Sequence record: MW481326.1
Reading direction: 5' to 3' (one strand)
DNA length: 64,000 nucleotides
Origin: Escherichia phage vB_EcoM-Pr103Blw
Of this stretch, positions 11,649-64,000 are shown one piece after another. How positions within the stretch are numbered: position 1 is the first letter of the stretch; the number at the start of each line of letters is the position of its first letter. The position numbers were made by a program, and so were the translations under genes. The notes below the pieces were generated by a model that saw only the letters and a list, made by a program, of their open reading frames with translations, did no database searches and was not told the DNA's origin.

Positions 11649-12824
11649 ATGGCAGTAGGTGAAATTCAAATTAGTGCCTTGCCACAAGCGGCCTTACCAG
11701 TTGATTTGAGTGATATCTTCCACCTTAAGCAAGGTGTTGAGGATAAAAGATGTACGCTTGAGCAGTTGTTAGCACCTCACGCATCTTTGAGGAATAACCC
11801 TCATGGTGTAACTAAATCACAAGTAGGTCTTGATAATGTTATTAACTCTCTTCAATTAGTTGCAGCTAATAACTTGTCAGATATTGTAAGTGTTGCTGAG
11901 GCAAGAGCAAATCTACAAATTATGTCGTCAGAGGAAGTGAATAACTTAATTCAGCAACATATTGACGACAAAAGTAACCCACACAATACAACGAAAGCGC
12001 AGGTCGGTTTAAGTAATGTTCAGAACTGGACAACATCTAATCTGTACAATGAAGATGCTGATAAGTATGCTACCGCGAGAGCAGTGAATAATTTATACAA
12101 AGCTATCCAAGCATCATATCCAGTAGGGACTATTCATCTATCTGTTAACTCTGCTAACCCATCCACTTACTTGCTTTGTGGAGGTACTTGGGAGTTAGTT
12201 TCCAAAGGTAGAGCACTAGTTGGTTATGATACAGATTCTAGACCTGTTGGTTCAATGTTTGGTTCTCAGACTGTAGCATTAACAAATAATAATTTACCAG
12301 CGCATACTCACTCTATCTATCTAACAGGTGGTGGTCATACACACTCTGCAAGCGTATCTATCTCTAGCTTTGATTATGGTTCAAAAAGTACATCGACTTT
12401 TGATTATGGTACGAAGACAACTAACAGTGCTGGTGCTCACACGCACACGTTTAGTGGCACAACAAGCAATGCTGGTAACCACAACCATAGAGTACCTATG
12501 AGGGGTAATGATAGAGGTGGTACAAATGCTATTACTGCATCTGCTGATGCTGGTGTTGGTAATGCTATGTATACTGATTTAGCTGGTGCTCACACCCATA
12601 GCTTCTCAGGCACAACTGCATCATCTGGTGCTCATAGTCATACTGTTGCAATTGGTGCTCATAGTCACACTGTTAATATTGGTTCACACAGTCATACAGG
12701 TACTGTTACTGTTTCTAGCTCCGAGCATACACACTCAGGAACATCTGGTTCTGTTGGTGGTGGTCAAGCTTTCAGTATTGAGCAACCATCTTTTGTAGTA
12801 TATGTGTGGCAGAGAACAGTTTAA
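11649..12824 (+). CDS. tail fiber protein with His-x-His repeat tip
   Basis: 391 aa; repeated AGAHTHTFSGTT / GAHSHTV / GSHSHTG motifs as in the metal-binding needle of T4 gp37-type fibers. Confidence 0.7.
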   Translation: MAVGEIQISALPQAALPVDLSDIFHLKQGVEDKRCTLEQLLAPHASLRNNPHGVTKSQVGLDNVINSLQLVAANNLSDIVSVAEARANLQIMSSEEVNNLIQQHIDDKSNPHNTTKAQVGLSNVQNWTTSNLYNEDADKYATARAVNNLYKAIQASYPVGTIHLSVNSANPSTYLLCGGTWELVSKGRALVGYDTDSRPVGSMFGSQTVALTNNNLPAHTHSIYLTGGGHTHSASVSISSFDYGSKSTSTFDYGTKTTNSAGAHTHTFSGTTSNAGNHNHRVPMRGNDRGGTNAITASADAGVGNAMYTDLAGAHTHSFSGTTASSGAHSHTVAIGAHSHTVNIGSHSHTGTVTVSSSEHTHSGTSGSVGGGQAFSIEQPSFVVYVWQRTV

Positions 12825-12833
12825 TTTCTTTAC

Positions 12834-12856
12834 AGGGGCTTTATAGCCCCTTTTAA
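12834..12856 (+). terminator. terminator-like hairpin
   Basis: AGGGGCT-ttat-AGCCCCT followed by TTTTAAG. Confidence 0.45.
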
Positions 12857-12870
12857 GAGGAAAATTCATA

Positions 12871-15243
12871 ATGGCAGATTACAAATTGAGTCAATTAAAC
12901 TCAATCGACACAATTCGTTCAGAAGACCTATTGCACATCAGAGTTAAGAAAAGACCTGAAATGTTGGGTGACGAAGACCGTAGAATGACCTATCAAGACT
13001 TCTTAGCTTCCTTCAAACTAGAAAGGTTTGTTCAGATTGCTGGTAGCACTATGACGGGTGATTTAGGTATTGTCAAGTTACTTTACGGTGGCAAGGCTGT
13101 ATTTGACCCTACAGGCTCTTCTGAGATTACTATTGGGGATATTTTAAAGACTTTTAAAATTAACTCAAATGGTCTTAAACTCACTATTGCAGATGCTTCA
13201 AGGTCAGCAACTGTTTATCATACTTTGAATAAACCAAGCCCTAATGAACTTGGTATGAGAACTAATGAAGAGAATGATGCGAGATATGCAAGACTTGCTG
13301 TCACAAACACATTCTCTGGAACTCAGAACATTCAAGGTGATGCTAACTTACTTCGCCTTAGAAACCAAAATGCAAACAATGCACAATACATTGAAGGTGT
13401 AAACCTAGATGGTTCAGCTAGATGGTGGGTTGGTATTGGTAGTAATGGTTCTGATGAAGTGAAGCTGTATAATAACAAATATAATTCAGCCTTGACTGTT
13501 GCAAGCAATATCTCTGTTAATAAATCTTTAGCAATCACTGGTCAAGTTCAACCTTCAGATTTCTCTAACTTAGATGCTAGATACTTCACTCAGACAGTTG
13601 CTAATCAGAGATTTGCACAGTTAGCTGCTAATAACAATTTTACTGGAACAAACACATTCAGCAGAAACCTCACCATCATCAGTGATAGTGCTGCTTTAAG
13701 GTTGAAAAATGCAACAGCTAGCTCACTATTCATTCAGGGTGTTGACTCTCAGAACACTAACAGGTGGTATGTAGGGAACGGGGATAACACAGCCTCTGTG
13801 CTGTTACACAACTATGTACACGGTTCAAATATTAGGCTTGATAATGGCTATATCTCAGTCAACCAGAACTTCAGAATCACTGGTCAAGTTCAACCTTCAG
13901 ATTGGGCTAACATTGACTCTAGATATATTCCGGCAGCAACATTAAGTACTATTGCAAGAACTAATGCACAAAACACTTTTAACGGTGTACAGAAAGTTGT
14001 TACGGATAATGAAGCTCTAATTTTGAAAAACTCTACTCAGAACAGACCATTGTATATCCGTGGTGTGGACACTGCTAATGTGTCAAGGTGGTGGGTAGGT
14101 GTTGGTGGGGCAGATACTAATGATGTTACCCTAAATAACAGTTTTTCTGGCACTCAGTTAGTTTTAGGTAACTCATCTGCAAGCATCAATAAGACACTAT
14201 CTCTGACTGGACAGATTCAACCTTCAGATTTCTCTAACTTAGATGCCAGATATTATACGCAATCTGTCGCAAACTCTAGGTACATGCTTGCTGTATCTAC
14301 TGGTTCTGGTACAGAGGTTGGTGATGGAGATGGTATTGCTTGGAATGCTAGAACTGGTTTGTATAATGTTACAGGGAAAACTGGCGGTTCAACACAACTG
14401 GTTTATCAGATGTTTATCGGTGGTGGTTCAACACCAACTGCACAGTTGAAGTTTAGCTACGGGAATGGTGGTATTTTGTACAGGACAGCACGAGATGGGT
14501 ATGGTTTTGAGAAGGCATGGGCTAAAATCTATACAGACCAAGATAAACCAACCCCTTCAGATATTGGTGCATACACTAAAGCAGAAACTGACCAGAGAAT
14601 CGCAGAAGCAATTAGTGACTCTACAGACCTGAATAAAATCTATCCAGTAGGTATTGTGACGTGGTTTAACAGTAATGTCAACCCCAACACAGCACTTCCT
14701 GGGTTAACTTGGACGTACCTGAACAATGGTGTTGGTAGAACTATTAGAATTGCAGCAGCAAACGGTTCAGATGTTGCTACAACTGGTGGTTCAGACTCTG
14801 TAACGTTATCTGTTGGTAACTTACCTTCACATACACACAGCTTCTCTGCTACCACTTCATCATTTGATTATGGTACTAAGACTTCTAGCACAACTGGTAA
14901 CCATAACCACAACAGAGGTACTATGGAGATTACTGGTACAGTGGGTTACTTTAGAAGTGACTCTAGCAGCTTCTACACAGCAAGTGGTGCATTCACACTT
15001 GGTAGCTCAACTGCTTCTAAAGGCTTCACTGGTTCTAACTTTACTTATGGTATCCCTGCTAACTTTAATGCGTCAAGAACTTGGTCTGGCGTTACTAACA
15101 CAACTGGTAACCATAACCATACTGTAGGTATTGGTGCTCACAACCACACAGTTAGCGGTAACACAGGTGGTACTGGTTCTGGTTCAGCATTTAGTGTTAC
15201 TAACCAGTTCTATAAGTTAATGGCTTGGGTAAGAACTGCTTAA
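12871..15243 (+). CDS. long tail fiber protein with internal triplicated repeat and His-x-His tip
   Basis: 790 aa; three ~110-aa repeats (ITGQVQPSDFSNLDARY...); C-terminal HTHSFSATT/GNHNHTVGIGAHNHTV like the upstream fiber. Confidence 0.7.
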   Translation: MADYKLSQLNSIDTIRSEDLLHIRVKKRPEMLGDEDRRMTYQDFLASFKLERFVQIAGSTMTGDLGIVKLLYGGKAVFDPTGSSEITIGDILKTFKINSNGLKLTIADASRSATVYHTLNKPSPNELGMRTNEENDARYARLAVTNTFSGTQNIQGDANLLRLRNQNANNAQYIEGVNLDGSARWWVGIGSNGSDEVKLYNNKYNSALTVASNISVNKSLAITGQVQPSDFSNLDARYFTQTVANQRFAQLAANNNFTGTNTFSRNLTIISDSAALRLKNATASSLFIQGVDSQNTNRWYVGNGDNTASVLLHNYVHGSNIRLDNGYISVNQNFRITGQVQPSDWANIDSRYIPAATLSTIARTNAQNTFNGVQKVVTDNEALILKNSTQNRPLYIRGVDTANVSRWWVGVGGADTNDVTLNNSFSGTQLVLGNSSASINKTLSLTGQIQPSDFSNLDARYYTQSVANSRYMLAVSTGSGTEVGDGDGIAWNARTGLYNVTGKTGGSTQLVYQMFIGGGSTPTAQLKFSYGNGGILYRTARDGYGFEKAWAKIYTDQDKPTPSDIGAYTKAETDQRIAEAISDSTDLNKIYPVGIVTWFNSNVNPNTALPGLTWTYLNNGVGRTIRIAAANGSDVATTGGSDSVTLSVGNLPSHTHSFSATTSSFDYGTKTSSTTGNHNHNRGTMEITGTVGYFRSDSSSFYTASGAFTLGSSTASKGFTGSNFTYGIPANFNASRTWSGVTNTTGNHNHTVGIGAHNHTVSGNTGGTGSGSAFSVTNQFYKLMAWVRTA
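13537..14262 (+). repeat. in-frame intragenic direct repeats (3 copies, period ~330-340 bp) in long fiber gene
   Basis: actggtcaagttcaaccttcagat...ctagat recurs at about 13540, 13880 and 14210. Confidence 0.7.
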
Positions 15244-15322
15244 TCCCTTGTTGACTGATTGTTAAGATGGTGTTAATATTCTTTATGGGTATTCTCACCA
15301 TCTTGGCTGATGAGGTGATTAA

Positions 15323-57365: not shown

Positions 57366-57484
57366 AAAGTCAAGAGAAAAATTTGTAGCGGATTGAAAAA
57401 TAATTCTTGATTTGTGTTCTGTTTTGTGGTAGTCGTGTGCGCACGTTTCATTACAGTTTTCCAAAAATATTTTTAAAATTTTTC

Positions 57485-57578
57485 TTGACTCTTTGAACGG
57501 GGTTATCTAGTATTTGCATCAACGGGGAGGGAATGACCTTTCCCACTAAGTAAAGTCCTTAAATTAGGAGATTCAAAA
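57485..57578 (+). promoter_or_regulatory. early promoter plus conserved leader cassette, copy 1
   Basis: TTGACT-17 nt-TAGTAT, then leader TCAACGGGGAGGGAATGACCTTTCCCACTAAGTAAAGTCCTTAAATTAGGAGATTCAAAA-ATG. Confidence 0.65.
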
Positions 57579-57959
57579 ATGGCATATCGTGCACCTAAAT
57601 TCATCAACAAAGACAACTTTCGCAACGCACTGGAGAAGTCACTTGATGAGAATTTTAAAGGTAACGTTATTGTTGTTCACTCGTTCAATTTTAAGTATGA
57701 TATCAACGGGAATAAAATCAACCATTACACGGCAACCATGTTAGATGGCACTCTTTCAAGTGAAAAAACAATTCTACATGCACTTGCTGGGCGTGGAAAA
57801 AACCTGATAAGGTGCGATAAGAGACGTTATCAGGGTGGCGCATATGGTTACGATGACGCTATTTATCATCTTGAAAATATGGGCTATCAAGTAGAAAAAG
57901 CTGGAGTATCACAAATCATCGGGAGCGATGGTTATGTAACAATCTTCAAAATTAACTGA
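57579..57959 (+). CDS. early protein, unknown function
   Basis: 126 aa; starts right after conserved leader/RBS. Confidence 0.6.
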   Translation: MAYRAPKFINKDNFRNALEKSLDENFKGNVIVVHSFNFKYDINGNKINHYTATMLDGTLSSEKTILHALAGRGKNLIRCDKRRYQGGAYGYDDAIYHLENMGYQVEKAGVSQIIGSDGYVTIFKIN

Positions 57960-58048
57960 TAAAGTACTTTACAAGGGGCTTATAGTTCGATAAAGTAAGC
58001 CCCAGATAAAGAGCTTTACCACTCAATCCTAAATTGGAGAACTAAAAA
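57960..58048 (+). promoter_or_regulatory. intercistronic palindrome-hairpin element, copy 1
   Basis: Palindrome TAAAGTACTTTA, hairpin GGGGCTTA...TAAGCCCC, then AGATAAAGAGCTTTACCACTCAATCCTAAATTGGAGA...ATG. Confidence 0.55.
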
Positions 58049-58339
58049 ATGGCTATTATCAAAAACGTTGTAATTACTGCAAAGACTCGTGATGACGCTC
58101 GCGTTATGGCTAAAAAGTTAGGCGGGAAAGTGGTTGACAACGGAAAACAATCTGCTGTAAGGTGGGGCGTGAAGGCTGATAAGCAGTTGAGGTTAAAAAA
58201 TTCACCGATAAACCTTTTTACATGTGTAAACACTATCGGGAAGACAAATGTATACACGAAAAAGGCATACATTAGACGCGTAGCATTAACATCCCCCATT
58301 CGTACAATGAGAAGTTATGCAAAGCTGAAAATTAACTGA
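58049..58339 (+). CDS. early protein, unknown function (basic)
   Basis: 96 aa; follows element copy 1; ends ...KLKIN like preceding gene (...IFKIN). Confidence 0.6.
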   Translation: MAIIKNVVITAKTRDDARVMAKKLGGKVVDNGKQSAVRWGVKADKQLRLKNSPINLFTCVNTIGKTNVYTKKAYIRRVALTSPIRTMRSYAKLKIN

Positions 58340-58427
58340 TAAAGTACTTTACAGGGGGCTTAAAAGTTGATATCTTAAGCCCCAGATAAAGAGCTTTACC
58401 ACTAAATCCTAAACTGGAGATTCAAAA
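58340..58427 (+). promoter_or_regulatory. intercistronic palindrome-hairpin element, copy 2
   Basis: TAAAGTACTTTA + GGGGGCTTAA...TTAAGCCCC + conserved RBS leader. Confidence 0.55.
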
Positions 58428-58724
58428 ATGAAACTATCAAATAAAGTCCGTGAAAATCTAAGCAAGTTACTTAATAAAATTGATTTCATTGAAACATCAA
58501 GGAATAGTCATGATGTTATGGAATGGTTACACGGAAAAATCAAAGGCCGTCGTGTAGTGATTTGCTTATGGAATAGTTGCAGGGAATATAAAAAACCTGT
58601 ATTGCAAGTCAATATCTATGATGATACTTTTAAAAGCCCTGTAAAGTCTAAAAGCGATTTATTAGAATCCTATGAGATAACTGTAAATGGCAAAGTATCA
58701 CGTAAAGAGGAAACACCATGCTAA
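58428..58724 (+). CDS. early protein, unknown function
   Basis: 98 aa. Confidence 0.6.
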   Translation: MKLSNKVRENLSKLLNKIDFIETSRNSHDVMEWLHGKIKGRRVVICLWNSCREYKKPVLQVNIYDDTFKSPVKSKSDLLESYEITVNGKVSRKEETPC

Positions 58725-59050
58725 TGACTGGTATCACTGCAATCATTGCCATTTTCGCGCTATATAAGGCATATAAAGCCTATAATCTAGCAAATAAGGC
58801 AATCACACAGCAGGTTAGCAATAACCTTGTAGAGAGCTTTCTAGGGCGTTTAAGTGATGAGCAAATAAAGCGGCTAGAGATGAGCTTCAGATATAAAGCG
58901 AAAACCTATCAAATAAGTGACATCTTCAAAGATGATTTTCAGTTAGTTGATGATTATAATTCTCTGATAAATGCTTTAAATATCAGTGACTTAAAAGACT
59001 ACTACGCTGTAATTGTTCAAGAATTGAGCAAACGAAAACAAAACTGTTGA
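58718..59050 (+). CDS. early membrane-anchored protein, unknown function
   Basis: 110 aa; N-terminal hydrophobic segment (LMTGITAIIAIFALY). Confidence 0.5.
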   Translation: MLMTGITAIIAIFALYKAYKAYNLANKAITQQVSNNLVESFLGRLSDEQIKRLEMSFRYKAKTYQISDIFKDDFQLVDDYNSLINALNISDLKDYYAVIVQELSKRKQNC

Positions 59051-59138
59051 CACTGGTTTTTAGATAGATTAAATTACACATCAACGGGGAGGGAATGACC
59101 TTCCCCACTAAATAAAGTCCTAAACTGGAGATTCTAAA
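59047..59138 (+). promoter_or_regulatory. early promoter plus conserved leader cassette, copy 2
   Basis: TTGACA-17 nt-TAAATT then leader with GGGGAGGGAATGACCTTCCCC hairpin and AGGAGA... wait-free RBS GGAGATTCTAAA-ATG. Confidence 0.65.
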
Positions 59139-59411
59139 ATGTATACTACTAACAACGGTCGCACTTTAAATGTCACACTACGTCACTATGTAGATGGTGT
59201 CATGCACTTTGAAGACTTACAAGCTGAACAACATATCTTAGATTGGCAAGTCGCAGGACTCCAAAAAACTGCTACGGGATACGGTAAAAAAATTCCAACC
59301 AGTTGGAAAGTACACTACGAAGGACGTTTGCGCAGAATTTATCAGGATGTGCAAAGCAATAGTGCATCGAGTTACATTATAGTAAAAGGTAAAAAACTGC
59401 ATTTAGTGTAA
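59139..59411 (+). CDS. early protein, unknown function
   Basis: 90 aa. Confidence 0.6.
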   Translation: MYTTNNGRTLNVTLRHYVDGVMHFEDLQAEQHILDWQVAGLQKTATGYGKKIPTSWKVHYEGRLRRIYQDVQSNSASSYIIVKGKKLHLV

Positions 59412-59495
59412 AGTACTTTACAGGGGGTTATCAAGCTGATAAGATAACCCCAGATAAAGAGCTTTACCACTCAATCCTAAATTGGAGATTCTAAA
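59409..59495 (+). promoter_or_regulatory. intercistronic palindrome-hairpin element, copy 3
   Basis: TAAAGTACTTTA overlapping stop codon; hairpin GGGGTTATC...GATAACCCC (stem co-varies relative to other copies). Confidence 0.55.
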
Positions 59496-59900
59496 ATGGC
59501 TATTAATAACCGTGAATTATCAATCTTAAAAGCACGTTTGACCGTCAACCGGATTAATGTTCTGACATCATCAGCGCCTGATGAGACATTGCACAACATT
59601 ATCGGAAAGATTCAAAGTGTTATCTTAGACGTTGAAAACGTAAAAAACTCATTGGCTGACGTTGCAGCAGGTATCACGCTAGACGGTGCGCAATATGAAA
59701 TGATTGATATGTTAGGCAAATCAAAGGTTATGAATAAAGAGTTAGACCTAAAAATGTTTCGATTTGCCGTGAAAGTATGGCTATCTGTCGAGTATGATGC
59801 TAATTTTGCAATCGCTGATTTCTTCGCCACTTGGTTACAACGTAATTTGACAAATCACGATTTTCGTGGCATCTGCGATGCAATTTATGCAGAACTCTAA
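59496..59900 (+). CDS. early protein, unknown function
   Basis: 134 aa. Confidence 0.6.
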   Translation: MAINNRELSILKARLTVNRINVLTSSAPDETLHNIIGKIQSVILDVENVKNSLADVAAGITLDGAQYEMIDMLGKSKVMNKELDLKMFRFAVKVWLSVEYDANFAIADFFATWLQRNLTNHDFRGICDAIYAEL

Positions 59901-59909
59901 AAAATTTTG

Positions 59910-60003
59910 TTGACACTGGTTTTTAGATAGATTAAATTACACATCAACGGGGAGGGAATGACCTTCCCCACTAAATAAAGTCCTTAAACTAGGAGATTCA
60001 AAA
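59910..60003 (+). promoter_or_regulatory. early promoter plus conserved leader cassette, copy 3
   Basis: About 95 bp nearly identical to copy 2 (TTGACACTGGTTTTTAGATAGATTAAATTACACATCAACGGGG...). Confidence 0.65.
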
Positions 60004-60207
60004 ATGGCTATTATTAACGGTTTAACCATTGAAACTACACACATCAAAGATATCAAAGTTGGTGATATAGTCCTTTCCCACGGCGTAGAAAAAACTGTCA
60101 CTGCAAAGGATATCAAAGAGGATTCTTTCATGGGTAGGACTCTCTTCGGTGATTCTTATTGCTTAGGTTATCTTGCAGTTTTAAAAGTTGTCAAAATTAA
60201 CAAATAA
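60004..60207 (+). CDS. early protein, unknown function
   Basis: 67 aa. Confidence 0.55.
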   Translation: MAIINGLTIETTHIKDIKVGDIVLSHGVEKTVTAKDIKEDSFMGRTLFGDSYCLGYLAVLKVVKINK

Positions 60208-60291
60208 AGTACTTTACAAGGGGCTTATAAGTCTGTAAAGTAAGCCCCAGATAAAGAGCTTTACACAATCCTTAAACTAGGAGATTCAAAA
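60205..60291 (+). promoter_or_regulatory. intercistronic palindrome-hairpin element, copy 4
   Basis: TAAAGTACTTTA overlapping stop; hairpin GGGGCTTAT...TAAGCCCC; conserved RBS leader. Confidence 0.55.
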
Positions 60292-60834
60292 ATGAAATGC
60301 TATCACGGAACTACTCAAGAAAATTTCCTCAACCTGATTAATAACGGTGATAAACCATCAGGCGCATGGAATTGTTCGGATATGGACGGCAATTTTTACG
60401 TGTATCCAGAAAATAAAATCTATGGCGACGATGAGGAAGAAATAGCATCAGAAGGTATCCAACAAGCTCTAGGAAATGCCACTATCACCGCAGCTTTCCA
60501 GATGAAAACCCAAAATATTGTTATCTTAGAACTCGATATTCCAGAGGATGAGCTGAATGATGATTATTCTTGTGATAATATGTCGAGTGTGGCAAGTTTT
60601 ACAGAGTACTTTGATGTAAATTGGATTAAAAAGGTCTATACAACAGAGTTTAACGCTATGTATTCACCTTTTTGTCTTCCTTCATTGGATAACCCAAATT
60701 TAAACTATCTTGATGAGTCTCTGGAGCTTCTTGCTAAAAGTGTTCAACAGTCGGACAGTATTCAGGTTTTTTGTGACATCATGGATACACTGACAGGGAA
60801 CATTGCAGAAGAGGATTTAAAGAGCTTTTTCTAA
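60292..60834 (+). CDS. early protein, unknown function (acidic)
   Basis: 180 aa. Confidence 0.6.
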   Translation: MKCYHGTTQENFLNLINNGDKPSGAWNCSDMDGNFYVYPENKIYGDDEEEIASEGIQQALGNATITAAFQMKTQNIVILELDIPEDELNDDYSCDNMSSVASFTEYFDVNWIKKVYTTEFNAMYSPFCLPSLDNPNLNYLDESLELLAKSVQQSDSIQVFCDIMDTLTGNIAEEDLKSFF

Positions 60835-60866
60835 AAACCTATGCAATCACCTTATAAACACTAATC

Positions 60867-60887
60867 AGCCCCTTGTAGGGGCTTTTA
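60867..60887 (+). terminator. terminator-like hairpin
   Basis: AGCCCC-ttgta-GGGGCT followed by TTTTA. Confidence 0.45.
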
Positions 60888-60900
60888 GGGGGCTTAAATC

Positions 60901-61134
60901 ATGCTTACAACCATTTATCTCATCCTTTCCATTTGTAACGGCCATTCATGCGATTTTAAAGGGCTTGAGGAGTTCACAGGAAGTAAAGAAAATGCCATTC
61001 AAGTTTGTCAGATAGCAAGGCAAGACTATCCCGCCAGTGATGACATACAATGCTACTTTAAGACAGAAGATGAAGAAGGCATTTATTTTGATAGTGTTGA
61101 CGGTCAATATGAAATTATCATTGAAAAAGACTAG
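60901..61134 (+). CDS. early protein, unknown function
   Basis: 77 aa; GGGGGC SD. Confidence 0.5.
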   Translation: MLTTIYLILSICNGHSCDFKGLEEFTGSKENAIQVCQIARQDYPASDDIQCYFKTEDEEGIYFDSVDGQYEIIIEKD

Positions 61135-61225
61135 ACAAGCCTGATAAAAGCTTGTAGAGTGTCAATCAACGGGGAGGGAATAACCTTCCCCACTAAGTAA
61201 AGTCCTTAAACTAGGAGATTCTAAA
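61132..61225 (+). promoter_or_regulatory. early promoter plus conserved leader cassette, copy 4
   Basis: TAGACA-17 nt-TAGAGT overlapping upstream stop, then leader with GGGGAGGGAATAACCTTCCCC hairpin. Confidence 0.55.
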
Positions 61226-61567
61226 ATGGCTTATGTAACTGTAATTACCGATAAAGAGAATTCATCTTGGTCAACTCAGGTTAGTGATAAGATGTCACCT
61301 ATGCAGTGTCTAAAATACTTTGAGCAGTGGAACAAAGGCGAGGATGTAAGCCCCTTTCAGGTAATGCAAATCATCCATACAGATAACGAAGGGAATAAAA
61401 CGACACTGAATAGTGAGTACTATGCAAGCCGTTTTGAAACGAGAAGTAAAACAATGAAGCTTTTACGTGAATCCGGCTATTCTCACATTGCCGCGCTAAT
61501 ATGGGATGACCTGCTGAAAAGCCAGCGTATCAGCTATGTAAAACCTGAAAAAATATTCATCAGTTAA
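61226..61567 (+). CDS. early protein, unknown function
   Basis: 113 aa. Confidence 0.6.
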   Translation: MAYVTVITDKENSSWSTQVSDKMSPMQCLKYFEQWNKGEDVSPFQVMQIIHTDNEGNKTTLNSEYYASRFETRSKTMKLLRESGYSHIAALIWDDLLKSQRISYVKPEKIFIS

Positions 61568-61599
61568 TCAATAACTTATAAAAAACTTTAAAAAATTAC

Positions 61600-61628
61600 T
61601 TGACGATACCCCTTGACAATAGTACATT
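61600..61628 (+). promoter_or_regulatory. sigma70-like promoter
   Basis: TTGACG-17 nt-TACATT in 220-bp gap. Confidence 0.4.
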
Positions 61629-61696
61629 TGTTCGAGGGGGTTTATCTAAAAGGGATTCACTTAAAAGATTCTTTATAGATAAGCTTAAAAAATTGC

Positions 61697-61789
61697 TTGC
61701 AATCAACTATCAAAACAAGTAAATTACTAATCAACGGGGAGGCGATAACCTTCCCCACTAAATAAAGTCCTTAAACTAGGAGATTCAAA
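61697..61789 (+). promoter_or_regulatory. early promoter plus conserved leader cassette, copy 5
   Basis: TTGCAA-17 nt-TAAATT then leader (hairpin GGGGAGGCGATAACCTTCCCC). Confidence 0.6.
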
Positions 61790-62320
61790 ATGAACAAGTT
61801 CAAAGCTATCAACTATATTCGTTCAAATGCTGTAATGTCTAAGCCTGTTAAAGATACCTACGAATTTCGCTGCAACGGTGTACACTTCGCAACCATCACT
61901 AAATCAGAAAACGGGGCTTATTACGTTCATCGTCGTAATGTTTCGACCGTTGTAGTCTCTCACTTTATGCAAGCTGTAGCAGAATTATTACCGTTATTCT
62001 TAGAGATTTACTTAGATGAGTGTAAAAACGTTCGCAACCATGTTAAAAACCTTTTAAATGGTTATAAGATGGCTTATGAACGTTCTATCAAGAATCTTAA
62101 CAAGTTCTATAAAGCCCCTGAAAATACTGTATCAATAGCTTATGATGTAAGCGGTGAAATGGCCAACCTCTCTAATGTAGAACAAATTAGCCTTTATGAT
62201 TTACGTCCTAGTGGCTACTCTAAGACTCTCGGTGAAGGTTTATCCTTCAATATCAAGAACTTAGAAAAAACTTTAAAAGATATTGAAAAAGATATTGACG
62301 AGACAATCAAAAGTCTGTAA
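61790..62320 (+). CDS. early protein, unknown function
   Basis: 176 aa. Confidence 0.6.
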   Translation: MNKFKAINYIRSNAVMSKPVKDTYEFRCNGVHFATITKSENGAYYVHRRNVSTVVVSHFMQAVAELLPLFLEIYLDECKNVRNHVKNLLNGYKMAYERSIKNLNKFYKAPENTVSIAYDVSGEMANLSNVEQISLYDLRPSGYSKTLGEGLSFNIKNLEKTLKDIEKDIDETIKSL

Positions 62321-62382
62321 ATTGTCAATCAACGGGGGATAACCTCCCCCACTAAACAAAATCCTAAACTGGAGTTATCAAG
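62295..62382 (+). promoter_or_regulatory. early promoter plus conserved leader cassette, copy 6
   Basis: TTGACG-17 nt-TAAATT (-10 overlaps stop codon); shortened hairpin GGGGGATAACCTCCCCC. Confidence 0.6.
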
Positions 62383-62646
62383 ATGGAAAACGTAGAATTA
62401 ACCACACTTTTACAAATTGCAACCGACAAAGAAGATGTAGCATTATTCCACCGTATCGAAAGTGATTTGTTCAATGGTGAAATCATTAAAGAATCTTACG
62501 AAGTTGTCGGATTCAAAGATGGTAAAGCATTTGGCTTTTTTGACCTCGACAAAAGCAAAGCGGTTACAATGTACGATGTTCTATCTTGTGAAATTCTGAC
62601 AAAATACAACGAAAAAAGGCTTGCAACCTACGCCAATATGCAGTAA
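62383..62646 (+). CDS. early protein, unknown function
   Basis: 87 aa. Confidence 0.6.
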   Translation: MENVELTTLLQIATDKEDVALFHRIESDLFNGEIIKESYEVVGFKDGKAFGFFDLDKSKAVTMYDVLSCEILTKYNEKRLATYANMQ

Positions 62647-62713
62647 ATTACTAATCAACGGGGAGGGAATGACCTTCCCACTAAACAAAGTCCTAAACTG
62701 GAGAATCTAAATT
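62621..62713 (+). promoter_or_regulatory. early promoter plus conserved leader cassette, copy 7
   Basis: TTGCAA-17 nt-TAAATT then leader with GGGGAGGGAATGACCTTCCC hairpin. Confidence 0.6.
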
Positions 62714-62962
62714 ATGTCAACTATCCGCGTAACTGTTAATGCTTATGGCTGCCACAAACTTGATGCAAAATTCGATATCGGTGGAACAGATAACACCTTT
62801 GACCTTATCAAAATGCTGATTCAGCAGGTGATACCAGATTATAACCCTACTGATGACTTCTGGAAAGATGCCGTAAAAGAAGCCATAAACGAGGAATCTC
62901 ACTACCATTATTGGGGTGACTTGATTGTCTCTCTATACTACAGCAAACAAGGCTACAACTAA
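62714..62962 (+). CDS. early protein, unknown function
   Basis: 82 aa. Confidence 0.6.
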   Translation: MSTIRVTVNAYGCHKLDAKFDIGGTDNTFDLIKMLIQQVIPDYNPTDDFWKDAVKEAINEESHYHYWGDLIVSLYYSKQGYN

Positions 62963-63000
62963 TCGACGCAACGGGGCTAAATAGCCCCAGATACCTTTAC

Positions 63001-63024
63001 AGCCCCTTAAATGGGGCTTTTTTA
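63001..63024 (+). terminator. rho-independent terminator closing the early gene array
   Basis: AGCCCC-ttaaat-GGGGCT followed by TTTTTT; preceded by a second hairpin GGGGCT-aaat-AGCCCC at 62974-62988. Confidence 0.6.
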
Positions 63025-63039
63025 CGTCTATCGAATCCT

Positions 63040-64000
63040 TATACAATCCCTTTCCTTTCTAGAATCTTATCAGACCTTAAAAAGCAATAACTCTATAGTC
63101 TACTCTATAACCTCTTATCAAATCAACTTAAATATAAGCCCATAACCCGAAAGGGAAGGGCAACCACTAAAATGCTCTATAAAGCTCTATAACAGCCTTA
63201 TCAACCTAACTTAAGCAATCATATTAACCCACTCTAAAAAGCCCTTTATAGAGCTTCCTAGAGCCTTAAAAGAATCTTATAAGGGTACAAGCTTATAAGC
63301 TGGCTAGTATCTTGTGAATACCTAAACAACCCCTTGATAGTCACTAAAAAGTATGTTATAGGGGCTATAGAGTTACTTCAAAGTTACGTAAAAAGAGCTA
63401 TAAAGTTACGTAAATGCTAGCCCCCTTAACATTTTCTTAACAATTTCTTAACAAACCCTACATAGTTATGCTTGTTAGAGACTTGTTAGCCCCTTGTTAA
63501 ATCTCTGTTAAGACCACGTAAAAGCCTTGTAAGAGTCTTTGACATATCCTTAAAAGCCTCTGTAAAGCCCTATAAAGAGCTATCCATACAGTTGAGGGGT
63601 AAATACTAGGGAGAGCCTTAAAAGAGCTTACAAGGGGCTGTATAGGGCTTTTAAGAGGTATGTTTAAGAGTTCACTAAGAAAGGAAAGGGAACGATAAGA
63701 AAAGAGATAGTGACCATGTTAATAGCTTGTTAAAAAGATTAAACACTTGTTAGAAACTTGTTAATTATCTTAATAAAATAACTCTTTAAAATTAACTTGT
63801 TAGCTCTTATTAGTCATCTGTTAAGACTCTGTAAAGACTATTCAGCACTTGTTAGAAAACTGTTACATCCTTGTTAGTTCTGTTAAGAGACTGTTAAGAC
63901 CTTTGAAGAGTTGTTAAGAGCTTGTGAGAACTGTTAAGAGATTGTTAAGGATATTTTAAAATTTTGCAAAGTACTTGTAAGGGAGTTGTTAAGGGCTACC
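63040..64000. repeat. non-coding region dense in short degenerate repeats (CTATARAG and yTGTTARr families)
   Basis: No ORF of 60 aa or more; more than 20 copies of TGTTAAG/TGTTAGA-like heptamers, from about 63840 spaced every 10-12 bp; also TTACGTAA x2 and CTATAAAG/CTATAGAG copies. Confidence 0.6.

What the first reader, a model, noticed from the sequence alone, without database searches (positions are those of the whole stretch)
63040..64000. About 1 kb non-coding region with helically phased heptamer repeats: possible genome terminus, packaging site or origin
After the terminator that closes the early array there is no ORF of 60 aa or more. The DNA is instead filled with degenerate short repeats: CTATAAAG/CTATAGAG-type units, two TTACGTAA palindromes 20 bp apart, and especially more than 20 copies of yTGTTARr that from about 63840 onward recur every 10-12 bp, so successive sites face the same side of the helix. 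Phased arrays like this are typical of sites that load a multimeric DNA-binding protein (terminase small subunit at a pac site, origin-binding protein, nucleoid-type protein), and T7-like phages carry short-repeat arrays next to their terminal repeats. The region continues past the window edge.
Basis: seen in the sequence. Interest (0 to 1): 0.65.

Follow-up and report, generated by a model that had tools for sequence, protein, structure and literature searches.

The report
Felix O1-type phage terminal repeat
The repeat-filled non-coding stretch is the right-hand end of a Felix O1-like phage chromosome, namely a 400-bp spacer followed by the 581-bp direct terminal repeat already mapped in close relatives; the one feature that seems undescribed is a conserved array of TGTTA sites, spaced one DNA turn apart, inside that repeat.

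Summary
There is no gene between 63025 and 64000. The TGTTA-core motif is about 20-fold enriched and in phase with the DNA helix (period 10.2-10.4 bp; 0 of 1000 random placements reach this).

The window is a Felixounavirus (Felix O1-like myovirus). Positions 63420-64000 are the right copy of its short direct terminal repeat (DTR), and base 64000 is the physical genome end, not an arbitrary cut. Three relatives' records end at exactly this base and carry the same segment, 100% identical, at both ends. Run-off sequencing of UAB_Phi87 virion DNA gave the same segment. PhageTerm gave 581 bp and 613 bp repeats in two other relatives.

What I add:
- The motif array sits in the DTR, with a few more copies in the left-end flank outside the window.
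- The TGTTA core is 98% conserved against 89% for the DNA around it.
- All length changes in the left array are whole 11-bp units.
- The spacing pattern recurs in two other genera.
- Both cut sites are invariant.

I infer a protein-binding platform for end recognition during packaging. The binding protein is unknown. Interest is modest.

The parts
62973..63024 (+). Two hairpins that close the rightward block of small genes: GGGGCT/AGCCCC at 62973-62988, and the intrinsic terminator AGCCCC..GGGGCT plus a T-run at 63001-63024.
   Evidence: Terminator scan. The stems are conserved in 17 genomes while the loop varies.
63025..63419 (.). Unique right-end non-coding spacer. It holds CTCTATAA, CTTAAAAG and CTATAAAG-type short repeats in both orientations. 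It is not part of the terminal repeat.
   Evidence: No ORF. K-mer enrichment: CTCTATA occurs 4 times against 0.02 expected. 88% column conservation across relatives. Only one TGTTA copy.
63380..63419 (.). Left cut-site neighbourhood: two AAAGTTACGTAAA units 22 bp apart, each holding the 8-bp palindrome TTACGTAA, followed by TGCTA immediately before the cut. This is a candidate recognition sequence for the cut that creates the left end of the repeat.
   Evidence: Exact 13-nt direct repeat (family D16). These are the only two TTACGTAA copies in 64 kb. AAAGTTACGTAAATGCTAGCCCC is nearly invariant in 17 genomes. In Kolesnikvirus the same position reads TTACG-N7-TA|GCC.
63420..64000 (.). Right copy of the 581-bp direct terminal repeat (DTR). 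Base 64000 is the physical right end of the chromosome.
   Evidence: The Ro111lw and D4 records carry this segment 100% identical at both ends. They start at GCCCCCTTAACA and end at GTTAAGGGCTACC, exactly as here. Published evidence: PMC8303462 (581 bp), PMC6454146 (613 bp), PMC11737134, and PMC4837284 Fig. S1 (run-off sequence).
63425..63454 (-). Three CTTAACA units, which are TGTTAAG on the minus strand, at 11-bp spacing and starting 6 nt inside the left end.
   Evidence: TRF period 11, 2.7 copies, 94% matches. Copy number among relatives changes by whole 11-bp units.
63471..63514 (+). Four forward (C)TTGTTA/CTGTTAAG units at exact 11-bp spacing. They point away from the inverted triplet to their left.
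   Evidence: Indels among relatives are 11 or 22 bp only.
63515..63716 (.). Central part of the repeat, without TGTTA units. It holds a CTGTAAAGCCCTATAAAG / CTGTATAGGGCTTTTAAGAG dyad (63557-63577 and 63638-63658) and the purine tract AGAAAGGAAAGGGAACGATAAGAAAAGAG.
   Evidence: Inverted repeat I10: 21 nt, 86% complementary. The only 1-bp indels in the repeat fall here.
63717..63765 (+). Four forward TGTTA units with gaps of 11, 20 and 11 bp.
   Evidence: The cores are invariant in 17 genomes.
63798..63992 (+). Main phased array: 14 forward TGTTA-core units (consensus cTGTTAAGAg) with gaps of 21, 11, 20, 11, 11, 9, 11, 20, 11, 9, 11, 33 and 11 bp. This keeps a 10.4-bp period.
   Evidence: R = 0.90 at 10.4 bp. 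No indel in any of 17 genomes. The same gap pattern occurs in Michonne (Mooglevirus) and, nearly the same, in vEam_PM_6 (Kolesnikvirus).
63987..64000 (.). Right cut-site sequence TGTTAAGGGCTACC, the last bases of the chromosome. Read from the end inward on the bottom strand it gives GGTAGCCCTTAACA, which mirrors GCCCCCTTAACA at the left end.
   Evidence: Invariant in 17 genomes and followed in all relatives by AAGCAGATATACA. Local alignment of the two ends in inverted orientation scores 21, P = 0.006 against shuffles.

Best explanation
The window ends at the physical right end of a Felixounavirus (Felix O1-like) chromosome. Positions 63420-64000 are the right copy of a short, exact, non-permuted direct terminal repeat. 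Positions 63025-63419 are the unique spacer between the last rightward gene and that repeat.

Proposed mechanism, by analogy with T7-type short-DTR phages (my own knowledge: Dunn and Studier 1983; Casjens and Gilcrease 2009):
- Replicated genomes join into concatemers that hold one copy of the repeat between the right-unique and left-unique DNA.
- The packaging enzyme cuts at two fixed sites, here TGCTA|GCCCCC and GGGCTACC|AAGCAG.
- The repeat is duplicated, so that every virion carries it at both ends.

The roughly 25 TGTTA-core sites lie almost all on one strand, about one helical turn apart, with three inverted copies at the left edge. I infer that they form a platform on which an oligomeric DNA-binding protein assembles along one face of the DNA. 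That protein would be an unrecognised small-terminase-like or packaging accessory protein. Its role would be to mark the concatemer junction and position the nuclease at the two invariant boundaries.

What is shown: the identity and limits of the repeat, non-coding status, enrichment, phasing, and selective conservation of the motif.
What is inferred: that a protein binds the array, and that the purpose is packaging.

My confidence in the DTR identity is about 0.95, in the array being a selected protein-binding array about 0.7, and in the binder belonging to the packaging machinery about 0.4. The single confidence figure given with this explanation (0.6) is a compromise over the whole statement.
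For: Identity of the repeat.
- 255 phage records match 63000-64000 at 80-95% identity, almost all Felixounavirus.
- The records of Ro111lw, D4 and I14.1 end exactly at the window's last base. Ro111lw and D4 carry the segment 100% identical at both ends, 613 bp and 581 bp.
- E9 and SPJ41 also start at the same base.
- PhageTerm gave a DTR of 581 bp in Pr103Blw (PMC8303462) and 613 bp in Ro111lw (PMC6454146).
- Bal31 digestion plus run-off sequencing in UAB_Phi87 gave a sequence running from AACATTTTCTTAACAA to GTTAAGGGCTACCAA (PMC4837284 Fig. S1).
- In-silico terminal SpeI fragments of UAB_Phi87 are 4435 and 2747 bp, against the published 4322 and 2819 bp.
- In Felix O1 the 1.6-kb gap is flanked by convergent genes, so it needs no promoter.

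The array is under selection.
- TGTTA core columns are 97.8% conserved against 88.7% for the rest of the repeat. None of 580 circular shifts of the mask reaches this difference.
- All six indel events in the left array are 11 or 22 bp. There is no indel in 63798-64000.
- The same gap pattern occurs in Mooglevirus.
- It also occurs in Kolesnikvirus, whose 412-bp repeat is otherwise too diverged for BLAST beyond an 80-nt stretch.

Link to the ends.
- The array starts 6 nt inside the left cut and ends 9 nt before the right cut.
- Both boundaries are invariant.
- Both chromosome tips read CCCTTAACA 3-5 nt from the end.
- No cluster of the motif exists elsewhere in the 64 kb.
Against: - The left end of this particular genome is not in the window, so the repeat is inferred from relatives and not seen twice here.
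- No binding protein is known. PHROGs and Pfam recognise no small terminase subunit next to terL in UAB_Phi87, and the literature reports none for Felix O1 or UAB_Phi87.
- The motif is not strictly confined to the repeat. About 7 more copies lie in the 600-bp left-unique flank in Ro111lw, and GTTAAGA clusters lie outside the repeat in vEam_PM_6.
- The right boundary in the vEam_PM_6 record falls about 29 nt before the position homologous to the Felixounavirus cut. Either the cut site is not conserved across genera or that record is imprecise.
- The run-off ends of UAB_Phi87 differ from the PhageTerm-type ends by 8 and 2 nt.
- Roughly 25 sites is many more than known small-terminase recognition sites use.
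Confidence: 0.6

Rival explanations
1. The array is a replication origin, or an end-proximal replication element. In this reading the TGTTA units act as iterons that load a phage initiator or the primase-helicase, and the inverted-then-direct arrangement at the left edge together with nearby AT-rich tracts serves as the unwinding region.
For: Direct repeats sit next to AT-rich tracts: 63766-63795 is 90% AT and 63951-63980 is 83% AT. Three inverted units are followed by four direct units that diverge from 63455-63470. The region is free of transcription signals and flanked by convergent genes. The phage encodes its own polymerase and primase-helicase (annotation of UAB_Phi87).
Against: The units are 11 bp long with a 5-8-nt core, not the usual 17-22-bp iterons. 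There are no exact DnaA boxes, and the density of one-mismatch matches equals the background. No initiator gene lies adjacent. The array's limits coincide with the packaging cuts, which an origin does not require.
Confidence: 0.15
2. The array binds a protein that protects or organises the chromosome ends in a telomere-like way. It could shield the ends from RecBCD after injection, or promote pairing of the two repeats for circularisation or concatemer formation. The binder could be a phage protein or a host nucleoid protein such as IHF.
For: Both chromosome ends carry the array by definition. Both tips show the same CCCTTAACA 3-5 nt from the end. Adjacent 11-bp units create AACAAnnnnTTA, which is one mismatch from the IHF consensus, so such near-matches are 4-fold enriched here. 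Bas63, a Felixounavirus, is reported to lack a RecBCD inhibitor (bioRxiv 10.1101/2024.10.10.617714).
Against: There is only one exact IHF consensus match in the region, and it lies outside the repeat. About half the units read CTGTTA rather than TTGTTA, which breaks the IHF-like composite. No end-binding protein is known in this group. AA/TT helical periodicity is unremarkable, ranking 113 of 624 windows, so there is no sign of classical intrinsic curvature.
Confidence: 0.15
3. The repeats have no function of their own. They would be a by-product of replication slippage and unequal recombination in a non-coding terminal repeat that is needed only for its length and its two cut sites.
For: Copy number varies by whole 11-bp units among relatives, as slippage would produce. 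Variable hairpin mini-inserts are tolerated in the spacers of the repeat.
Against: Core positions are 98% conserved while the 6 bases between cores vary. The right array has had no indel in 17 genomes. Motif, orientation and gap pattern survive in genera whose repeats are otherwise unalignable. Compensating 9-bp and 20-bp gaps keep a 10.4-bp phase, which slippage of an 11-bp unit would not produce.
Confidence: 0.1

Closest known systems
Short direct terminal repeats of Felixounavirus / Ounavirinae: UAB_Phi87 608 bp by Bal31 and run-off sequencing, Ro111lw 613 bp, Pr103Blw 581 bp, D4/I14.1/E9 by PhageTerm, and short DTRs in Kolesnikvirus
   Same: It is the same locus, with the same boundaries to the base (GCCCCCTTAACA ... 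GTTAAGGGCTACC) and the same length class. Identity is 83-95%. The flanking gene order is the same.
   Different: Nothing essential differs; this is another member. The published descriptions found here give only the length or the sequence of the repeat. None mentions the phased TGTTA array, the invariant cut-site contexts or the unit-sized indels.
Phage T7 160-bp terminal repeat with its flanking short-repeat arrays SRL and SRR
   Same: Both are short, exact, non-permuted direct terminal repeats embedded in non-coding DNA full of short degenerate repeats. T7's units (CCTAAAG, CATAAAG, CTTAAAG) resemble the CTATAAAG, CTGTAAAG and CTTAAAAG units of the Felixounavirus spacer and central repeat. 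The concatemer-junction logic is presumably the same (inference from general knowledge).
   Different: The T7 arrays lie outside the repeat and are spaced 13 bp apart, so they are not in phase with the helix. Here the dominant array is inside the repeat, has a different core (TGTTA) and keeps a 10.4-bp phase. There is no sequence homology. T7 has promoters (A0, phiOL, phiOR) in these regions, and none is evident here. T7 is a podovirus with an unrelated terminase lineage.
Small-terminase recognition sites such as lambda cosB R-sites and SPP1 pacL/pacR (from general knowledge)
   Same: These are repeated short sites, phased so that an oligomeric protein can bind one face of the DNA next to a sequence-specific terminase cut.
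   Different: Those sites number 2-4, not about 25, and their binding protein is known. Here no small terminase subunit is recognisable, and packaging gives exact repeats rather than cohesive ends or headful ends.
Centromere-like arrays bound by ribbon-helix-helix proteins, such as plasmid R1 parC 11-bp iterons bound by ParR and omega-repressor heptad arrays (from general knowledge)
   Same: These are many contiguous short units of about 7-11 bp, in direct and inverted orientation, that polymerise a small dimeric protein into a helical filament on the DNA.
   Different: The biological context differs (plasmid partition and repression). No ParR-like or omega-like gene has been identified here. 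The resemblance is architectural only and was not tested.

Membership tests
Felixounavirus short direct terminal repeat (DTR) | The segment is homologous and collinear with DTRs mapped in members of the genus and has the same boundaries. | tested here: met
   Positions 63420-64000 align over their full length at 83-95% identity with the DTRs of Ro111lw, D4, E9, SPJ41 and UAB_Phi87. The first and last bases coincide with the record ends and lie within 8 and 2 nt of the run-off sequence.
Felixounavirus short direct terminal repeat (DTR) | The identical sequence is present at both ends of the same virion chromosome. | not testable with these tools
   The window holds only the right end. The feature is met in relatives: 100% identity over 613 bp in Ro111lw, 581 bp in D4 and 412 bp in vEam_PM_6.
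Felixounavirus short direct terminal repeat (DTR) | The physical ends are fixed and not circularly permuted. | not testable with these tools
   This needs reads or virion DNA. It was shown for relatives by Bal31 digestion and run-off sequencing (PMC4837284) and by PhageTerm (PMC8303462, PMC6454146, PMC11737134).
Felixounavirus short direct terminal repeat (DTR) | The large terminase subunit belongs to the Felix O1 DTR clade. | not tested
   terL lies upstream of the window. PMC4837284 places the UAB_Phi87, Felix O1, wV8 and HY02 large terminases in one DTR cluster.
Small-terminase (pac/cosB-type) recognition array | Repeated sites in phase with the DNA helix lie next to the terminase cut site. 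| tested here: met
   The period is 10.2-10.4 bp, with 0 of 1000 random placements matching it. The array lies within 6 and 9 nt of the two cuts.
Small-terminase (pac/cosB-type) recognition array | A small terminase subunit is encoded by the phage and binds the sites. | tested here: inconclusive
   PHROGs and Pfam give no small-terminase assignment for the genes next to terL in UAB_Phi87. These are a 66-aa protein (phrog_4397, function unknown) and a DUF7217 protein. Binding cannot be tested here.
Iteron-type replication origin | Iterons of about 17-22 bp, with an adjacent AT-rich unwinding region, DnaA boxes and an initiator gene. | tested here: not met
   The units are 11 bp long with a 5-8-nt core. 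AT-rich tracts are present, but there is no exact DnaA box and the density of one-mismatch matches equals the background. The nearest genes are small proteins of unknown function that converge on the region.
T7-type SRL/SRR short-repeat arrays | Heptamer arrays lie in the unique DNA immediately flanking the terminal repeat. | tested here: inconclusive
   The unique spacer 63025-63419 does carry enriched CTCTATAA and CTTAAAAG-type units. The dominant TGTTA array, however, is inside the repeat, and its spacing is 11 bp against 13 bp in T7. There is no homology.
Structured non-coding RNA, tRNA or small gene | A match to a known RNA family or tRNA, or a conserved ORF. | tested here: not met
   Rfam gives 0 matches at E <= 1. 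ARAGORN finds nothing. There is no ORF, and relatives carry frame-breaking indels.

The most novel reading that the evidence does not exclude
The helically phased TGTTAAGA array, conserved in the terminal repeats of three Ounavirinae genera, is the assembly site for a so far unrecognised end-recognition protein. This subfamily has no annotated small terminase subunit. The protein would polymerise along one face of about 200-500 bp of DNA and thereby define both cut sites of the repeat, which would be a packaging-initiation architecture unlike the few-site pac and cos systems studied so far. Alternatively the same filament could act as a telomere-like cap on the injected ends.
Probability: 0.3. 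Interest if true: 0.5.

Novelty: already known. Interest (0 to 1): 0.28.

Why it matters
For annotation, this settles where the chromosome starts and ends. About 1 kb of "empty" DNA is a functional end structure and not a missed gene. Many Felixounavirus records are opened elsewhere, lack the second repeat copy, or carry spurious "hypothetical protein" calls across this region.

Biologically, how short exact terminal repeats are recognised and duplicated is understood only for T7 and T3, and only in outline. Felix O1-like phages are widely used for Salmonella typing and for biocontrol of Salmonella and E. coli. Here they offer a clean system:
- two invariant cut sites;
- a conserved, phase-locked site array;
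- no known small terminase subunit.

Finding the protein that reads TGTTAAGA would fill that gap. It would also show which parts of the end must be kept when these phages are engineered.

Tried and rejected
- Coding gene: rejected. There is no ORF, the one long stop-free stretch has no start codon, and relatives carry frame-breaking indels.
- Structured RNA or tRNA: Rfam gives 0 hits at E <= 1 and ARAGORN finds nothing.
- Promoter cluster: 7 sigma-70-like matches against 4.9 +/- 2.1 in shuffles, and the flanking genes converge on the region, so this is not supported.
- DnaA boxes: no exact match, and one-mismatch density equals the background.
- IHF: near-consensus matches are 4-fold enriched. 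This is a by-product of adjacent units forming AACAAnnnnTTA, and half the units break the pattern. I kept it only as a minor lead.
- Intrinsic A-tract curvature: AA/TT periodicity at 10-11 bp is unremarkable, ranking 113 of 624 windows for the repeat and 63 of 627 for the right array.
- Motif acting as a general operator elsewhere in the genome: no other cluster in 64 kb, and only one stray 11-bp pair at 15260.
- Small terminase near terL in UAB_Phi87: PHROGs and Pfam give only unknown-function families.
- Exact reproduction of the published terminal SpeI fragments: I obtained 4435 and 2747 bp against 4322 and 2819 bp. The locus is the same, but there is a discrepancy of about 0.1 kb, possibly because the record version held here (87,603 bp) differs from the paper's 87,669 bp.
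- Literature search for the motif itself (TGTTAAG with "terminal repeat" and "phage") returned only irrelevant papers. This is not proof that the array has never been described.
Full report
WHAT IS IN THE SEQUENCE

The last + strand gene stops at 62962. It is followed by a hairpin (62973-62988) and an intrinsic terminator (63001-63024). From 63025 to the last base there is no gene. The largest ORF is 44 aa. The only long stop-free stretch is 73 codons on the minus strand (63500-63718), and it has no start codon before codon 67. Rfam finds nothing at E <= 1, ARAGORN finds no tRNA, and sigma-70-like promoter matches are not above shuffles.

- The strict pattern yTGTTArr occurs 13 times forward and 2 times reverse.
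- The core TGTTA occurs 19 times forward and 3 times reverse. A weight matrix built from these copies finds 22 forward units.
- About one TGTTA is expected in 581 bp on one strand (P = 2e-18).
- 16 of the 30 best forward matrix hits in the whole 64 kb fall in 63420-64000.
- No other cluster exists in the window.

The phasing is also real. Twelve of 21 neighbour gaps are exactly 11 bp. Most of the others (9, 20, 21 and 33 bp) compensate, so the array as a whole keeps a 10.2-bp period (R = 0.75; 0 of 1000 random placements reach it). The right-hand block 63798-63987 keeps 10.4 bp with R = 0.90.

The two TTACGTAA palindromes are at 63384 and 63406, 22 bp apart, and are the only copies in the window. 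CTCTATAA and CTTAAAAG-type units are enriched in 63025-63419 and in the centre of the repeat.

WHAT IT IS

The window is a Felixounavirus. 255 phage records match 63000-64000 at 80-95% identity. Three records (Ro111lw, D4, I14.1) end exactly at the window's last base. Ro111lw and D4 carry the segment that starts at window 63420 (GCCCCCTTAACATTTTC...) and ends at 64000 (...GTTAAGGGCTACC) 100% identical at both record ends, as 613 bp and 581 bp. E9 and SPJ41 start at the same base.

The literature explains why.
- PhageTerm assigns short direct terminal repeats to Ro111lw (613 bp; PMC6454146), Pr103Blw (581 bp; PMC8303462) and D4/I14.1/E9 (PMC11737134).
- For UAB_Phi87 the ends were mapped experimentally by Bal31 digestion and run-off sequencing (608 bp; PMC4837284).
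- The published UAB_Phi87 repeat sequence (Fig. S1) runs from AACATTTTCTTAACAA to GATGTTAAGGGCTACCAA. That is the same segment, offset by 8 nt on the left and 2 nt on the right.

My in-silico SpeI digest of UAB_Phi87 with these ends predicts terminal fragments of 4435 and 2747 bp, against the published 4322 and 2819 bp. The locus is the same, with a discrepancy of about 0.1 kb that I could not resolve.

The 2010 Felix O1 genome paper had only inferred "short terminal repeats" from genome size (PMC3185647). In the Felix O1 record the 1.6-kb gap (12305-13928) is flanked by genes that converge on it.

Hence 63420-64000 is the right copy of the DTR, 63025-63419 is the unique right-end spacer, and the window edge is the chromosome end. 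It is not an arbitrary cut.

WHAT THE COMPARISON ADDS

I aligned the window with 16 relatives: 13 IMG/VR contigs, Felix O1, Ro111lw and D4.

1. Both boundaries are invariant: AAAGTTACGTAAATGCTA|GCCCCCTTAACA on the left and TGTTAAGGGCTACC|AAGCAGATATACA on the right.
2. The five core bases of the TGTTA units are 97.8% conserved, against 88.7% for the rest of the repeat. The bases between cores vary freely, and no circular shift of the core mask reaches this difference.
3. All six indel events in the left array are 11 or 22 bp, that is, whole units. There is no indel at all in 63798-64000. One-base indels occur only in the purine tract at the centre, and 20-48-bp hairpin inserts occur only in the spacers between arrays.
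4. The architecture is older than the genus.
   - Citrobacter phage Michonne (Mooglevirus, 79% identity) has the same gap series.
   - Erwinia phage vEam_PM_6 (Kolesnikvirus) has a 412-bp repeat that is BLAST-alignable over only 80 nt. It again starts with inverted TTAACA units just inside a TA|GCC cut and ends with forward TGTTAAGA units at gaps of 11, 11, 9, 20, 20, 20, 11 and 22 bp.
5. Read from each tip inward, both chromosome ends show CCCTTAACA 3-5 nt from the end.

Together these results show that the array is under selection for core sequence, orientation and helical phase.

HOW IT PROBABLY WORKS

The following is shown: this is a short exact DTR, its cut sites are fixed and conserved, and it contains a selected, phase-locked array of a 5-8-nt site.

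The following is inferred by analogy with T7-type phages (general knowledge). Concatemers contain one repeat copy between right-unique and left-unique DNA. The terminase cuts at the two boundaries. The repeat is duplicated during packaging.

I propose that the array is the platform on which an oligomeric DNA-binding protein assembles along one face of the DNA, marking the junction and positioning the cuts. The AAAGTTACGTAAA pair and the TA|GCC context would be the left cut-site determinants. I put about 0.4 on the binder being part of the packaging machinery.

The main weaknesses are these.
- No small terminase subunit is recognisable. PHROGs and Pfam give only unknown-function families for the genes next to terL in UAB_Phi87.
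- About 7 further motif copies lie in the left-unique flank.
- The right end of the vEam_PM_6 record is about 29 nt short of the homologous Felixounavirus cut.

RIVALS

- Replication origin. There are AT-rich tracts and a divergent unit arrangement. However, the units are 11 bp, there are no DnaA boxes above background and there is no initiator gene nearby.
- Telomere-like end-protection or end-pairing protein, possibly host IHF. Near-consensus IHF matches are 4-fold enriched, but only as a by-product of adjacent units, and half the units break the pattern. AA/TT periodicity shows no classical curvature signal.
- Functionless slippage product. This is contradicted by the core-versus-spacer conservation, by conservation across genera, and by the compensating 9-bp and 20-bp gaps that keep a 10.4-bp phase.

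COMPARISON WITH KNOWN SYSTEMS

This is a member of the Felixounavirus DTR class: same locus, same boundaries, same length.

It works like the T7 terminal repeat in outline. I fetched T7 for a direct comparison. Its 160-bp repeat is flanked by CCTAAAG arrays that lie outside the repeat at 13-bp spacing. Here the main array is inside the repeat, at about one helical turn. The CTATAAAG, CTGTAAAG and CTTAAAAG units of the spacer and the repeat centre resemble T7's TAAAG units, but this is a resemblance and not homology.

Lambda cosB, SPP1 pac and plasmid parC-type arrays are architectural analogies that I recalled from general knowledge and did not test.

NOVELTY AND VERDICT

The terminal repeat of Felix O1-like phages at this locus is already known, and was mapped experimentally in 2016.

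What I could not find described, in the papers I read and in a full-text search for the motif, is the internal organisation: the helically phased TGTTA array, its indels by whole units, its conservation across three Ounavirinae genera, and the invariant, partly mirror-symmetric cut-site contexts. That detail is useful and testable for people who study packaging, but it is not a new kind of element.

Scores: interest 0.28; novelty "already known".

Noticed in passing
window 57474-62714: At least 7 copies of a 50-90-nt intergenic cassette lie upstream of the small + strand genes. Each has a TTGACA-like box, then TAAATTAC, then a conserved hairpin ACGGGGAGGGAATGACCTTCCCCAC, followed by AAAGTCCTAAACTGGAG and the start codon. 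This looks like a repeated promoter plus structured 5' leader for the early genes (families D1, D3 and D4; also visible).
   Followed up: partly
L001:3790-3807, L004:363-380, L006:5069-5086, L010:2056-2073, L011:4996-5013, L021:13358-13375 (insertion points correspond to window ~63677, ~63772 and ~63797): A 22-bp hairpin insert (ATTGGTA-ttgt-TACCAAT-CCCT) is present in some relatives only. It sits at different positions and in both orientations inside the spacers of the terminal repeat, and L013 has a 48-bp version. It is absent from the window. It looks like a tiny mobile element or a recombination scar.
   Followed up: partly
window 63028-63037; relatives L007/L008, L012, L013, L015, L011, L018 in the unique flanks: A second type of variable mini-insert of about 24-30 bp contains GATAGnnnnCTATCGAATC or its complement. 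It appears at several different sites in the non-coding flanks of relatives. The window keeps a single CTATCGAATC just after the terminator.
   Followed up: no
L004:614-1215 (Ro111lw left-unique non-coding region, outside the window): The 600 bp between the left repeat copy and the first (minus-strand) gene is also non-coding. It holds 7 more TGTTA units, several as pairs 9-13 bp apart; TATAGAG-type repeats; a TATATAG-rich tract; and a block that is nearly invariant in all 16 relatives, TGATGGTGACCCAGAGGTTGGGACAACCGAT, next to the terminator.
   Followed up: no
L022:1-9 (PP079182.1, Erwinia phage vEam_PM_6): The record begins with TTCCGATCT, which is the 3' end of the Illumina adapter, directly before the terminal repeat (bases 10-421 equal the last 412 bases). 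This is an adapter remnant in a public record. It incidentally marks a true read start at the physical end.
   Followed up: no
JN225449.1 (UAB_Phi87), L021: The record held here is 87,603 bp, is opened in the tRNA region and has no second repeat copy, whereas the paper reports 87,669 bp including a 608-bp repeat. Several 25-50-aa "hypothetical proteins" (Phi87_32 to Phi87_34) are annotated inside the non-coding end region. D4, FG1m, L27 and LinBro have similar calls.
   Followed up: no
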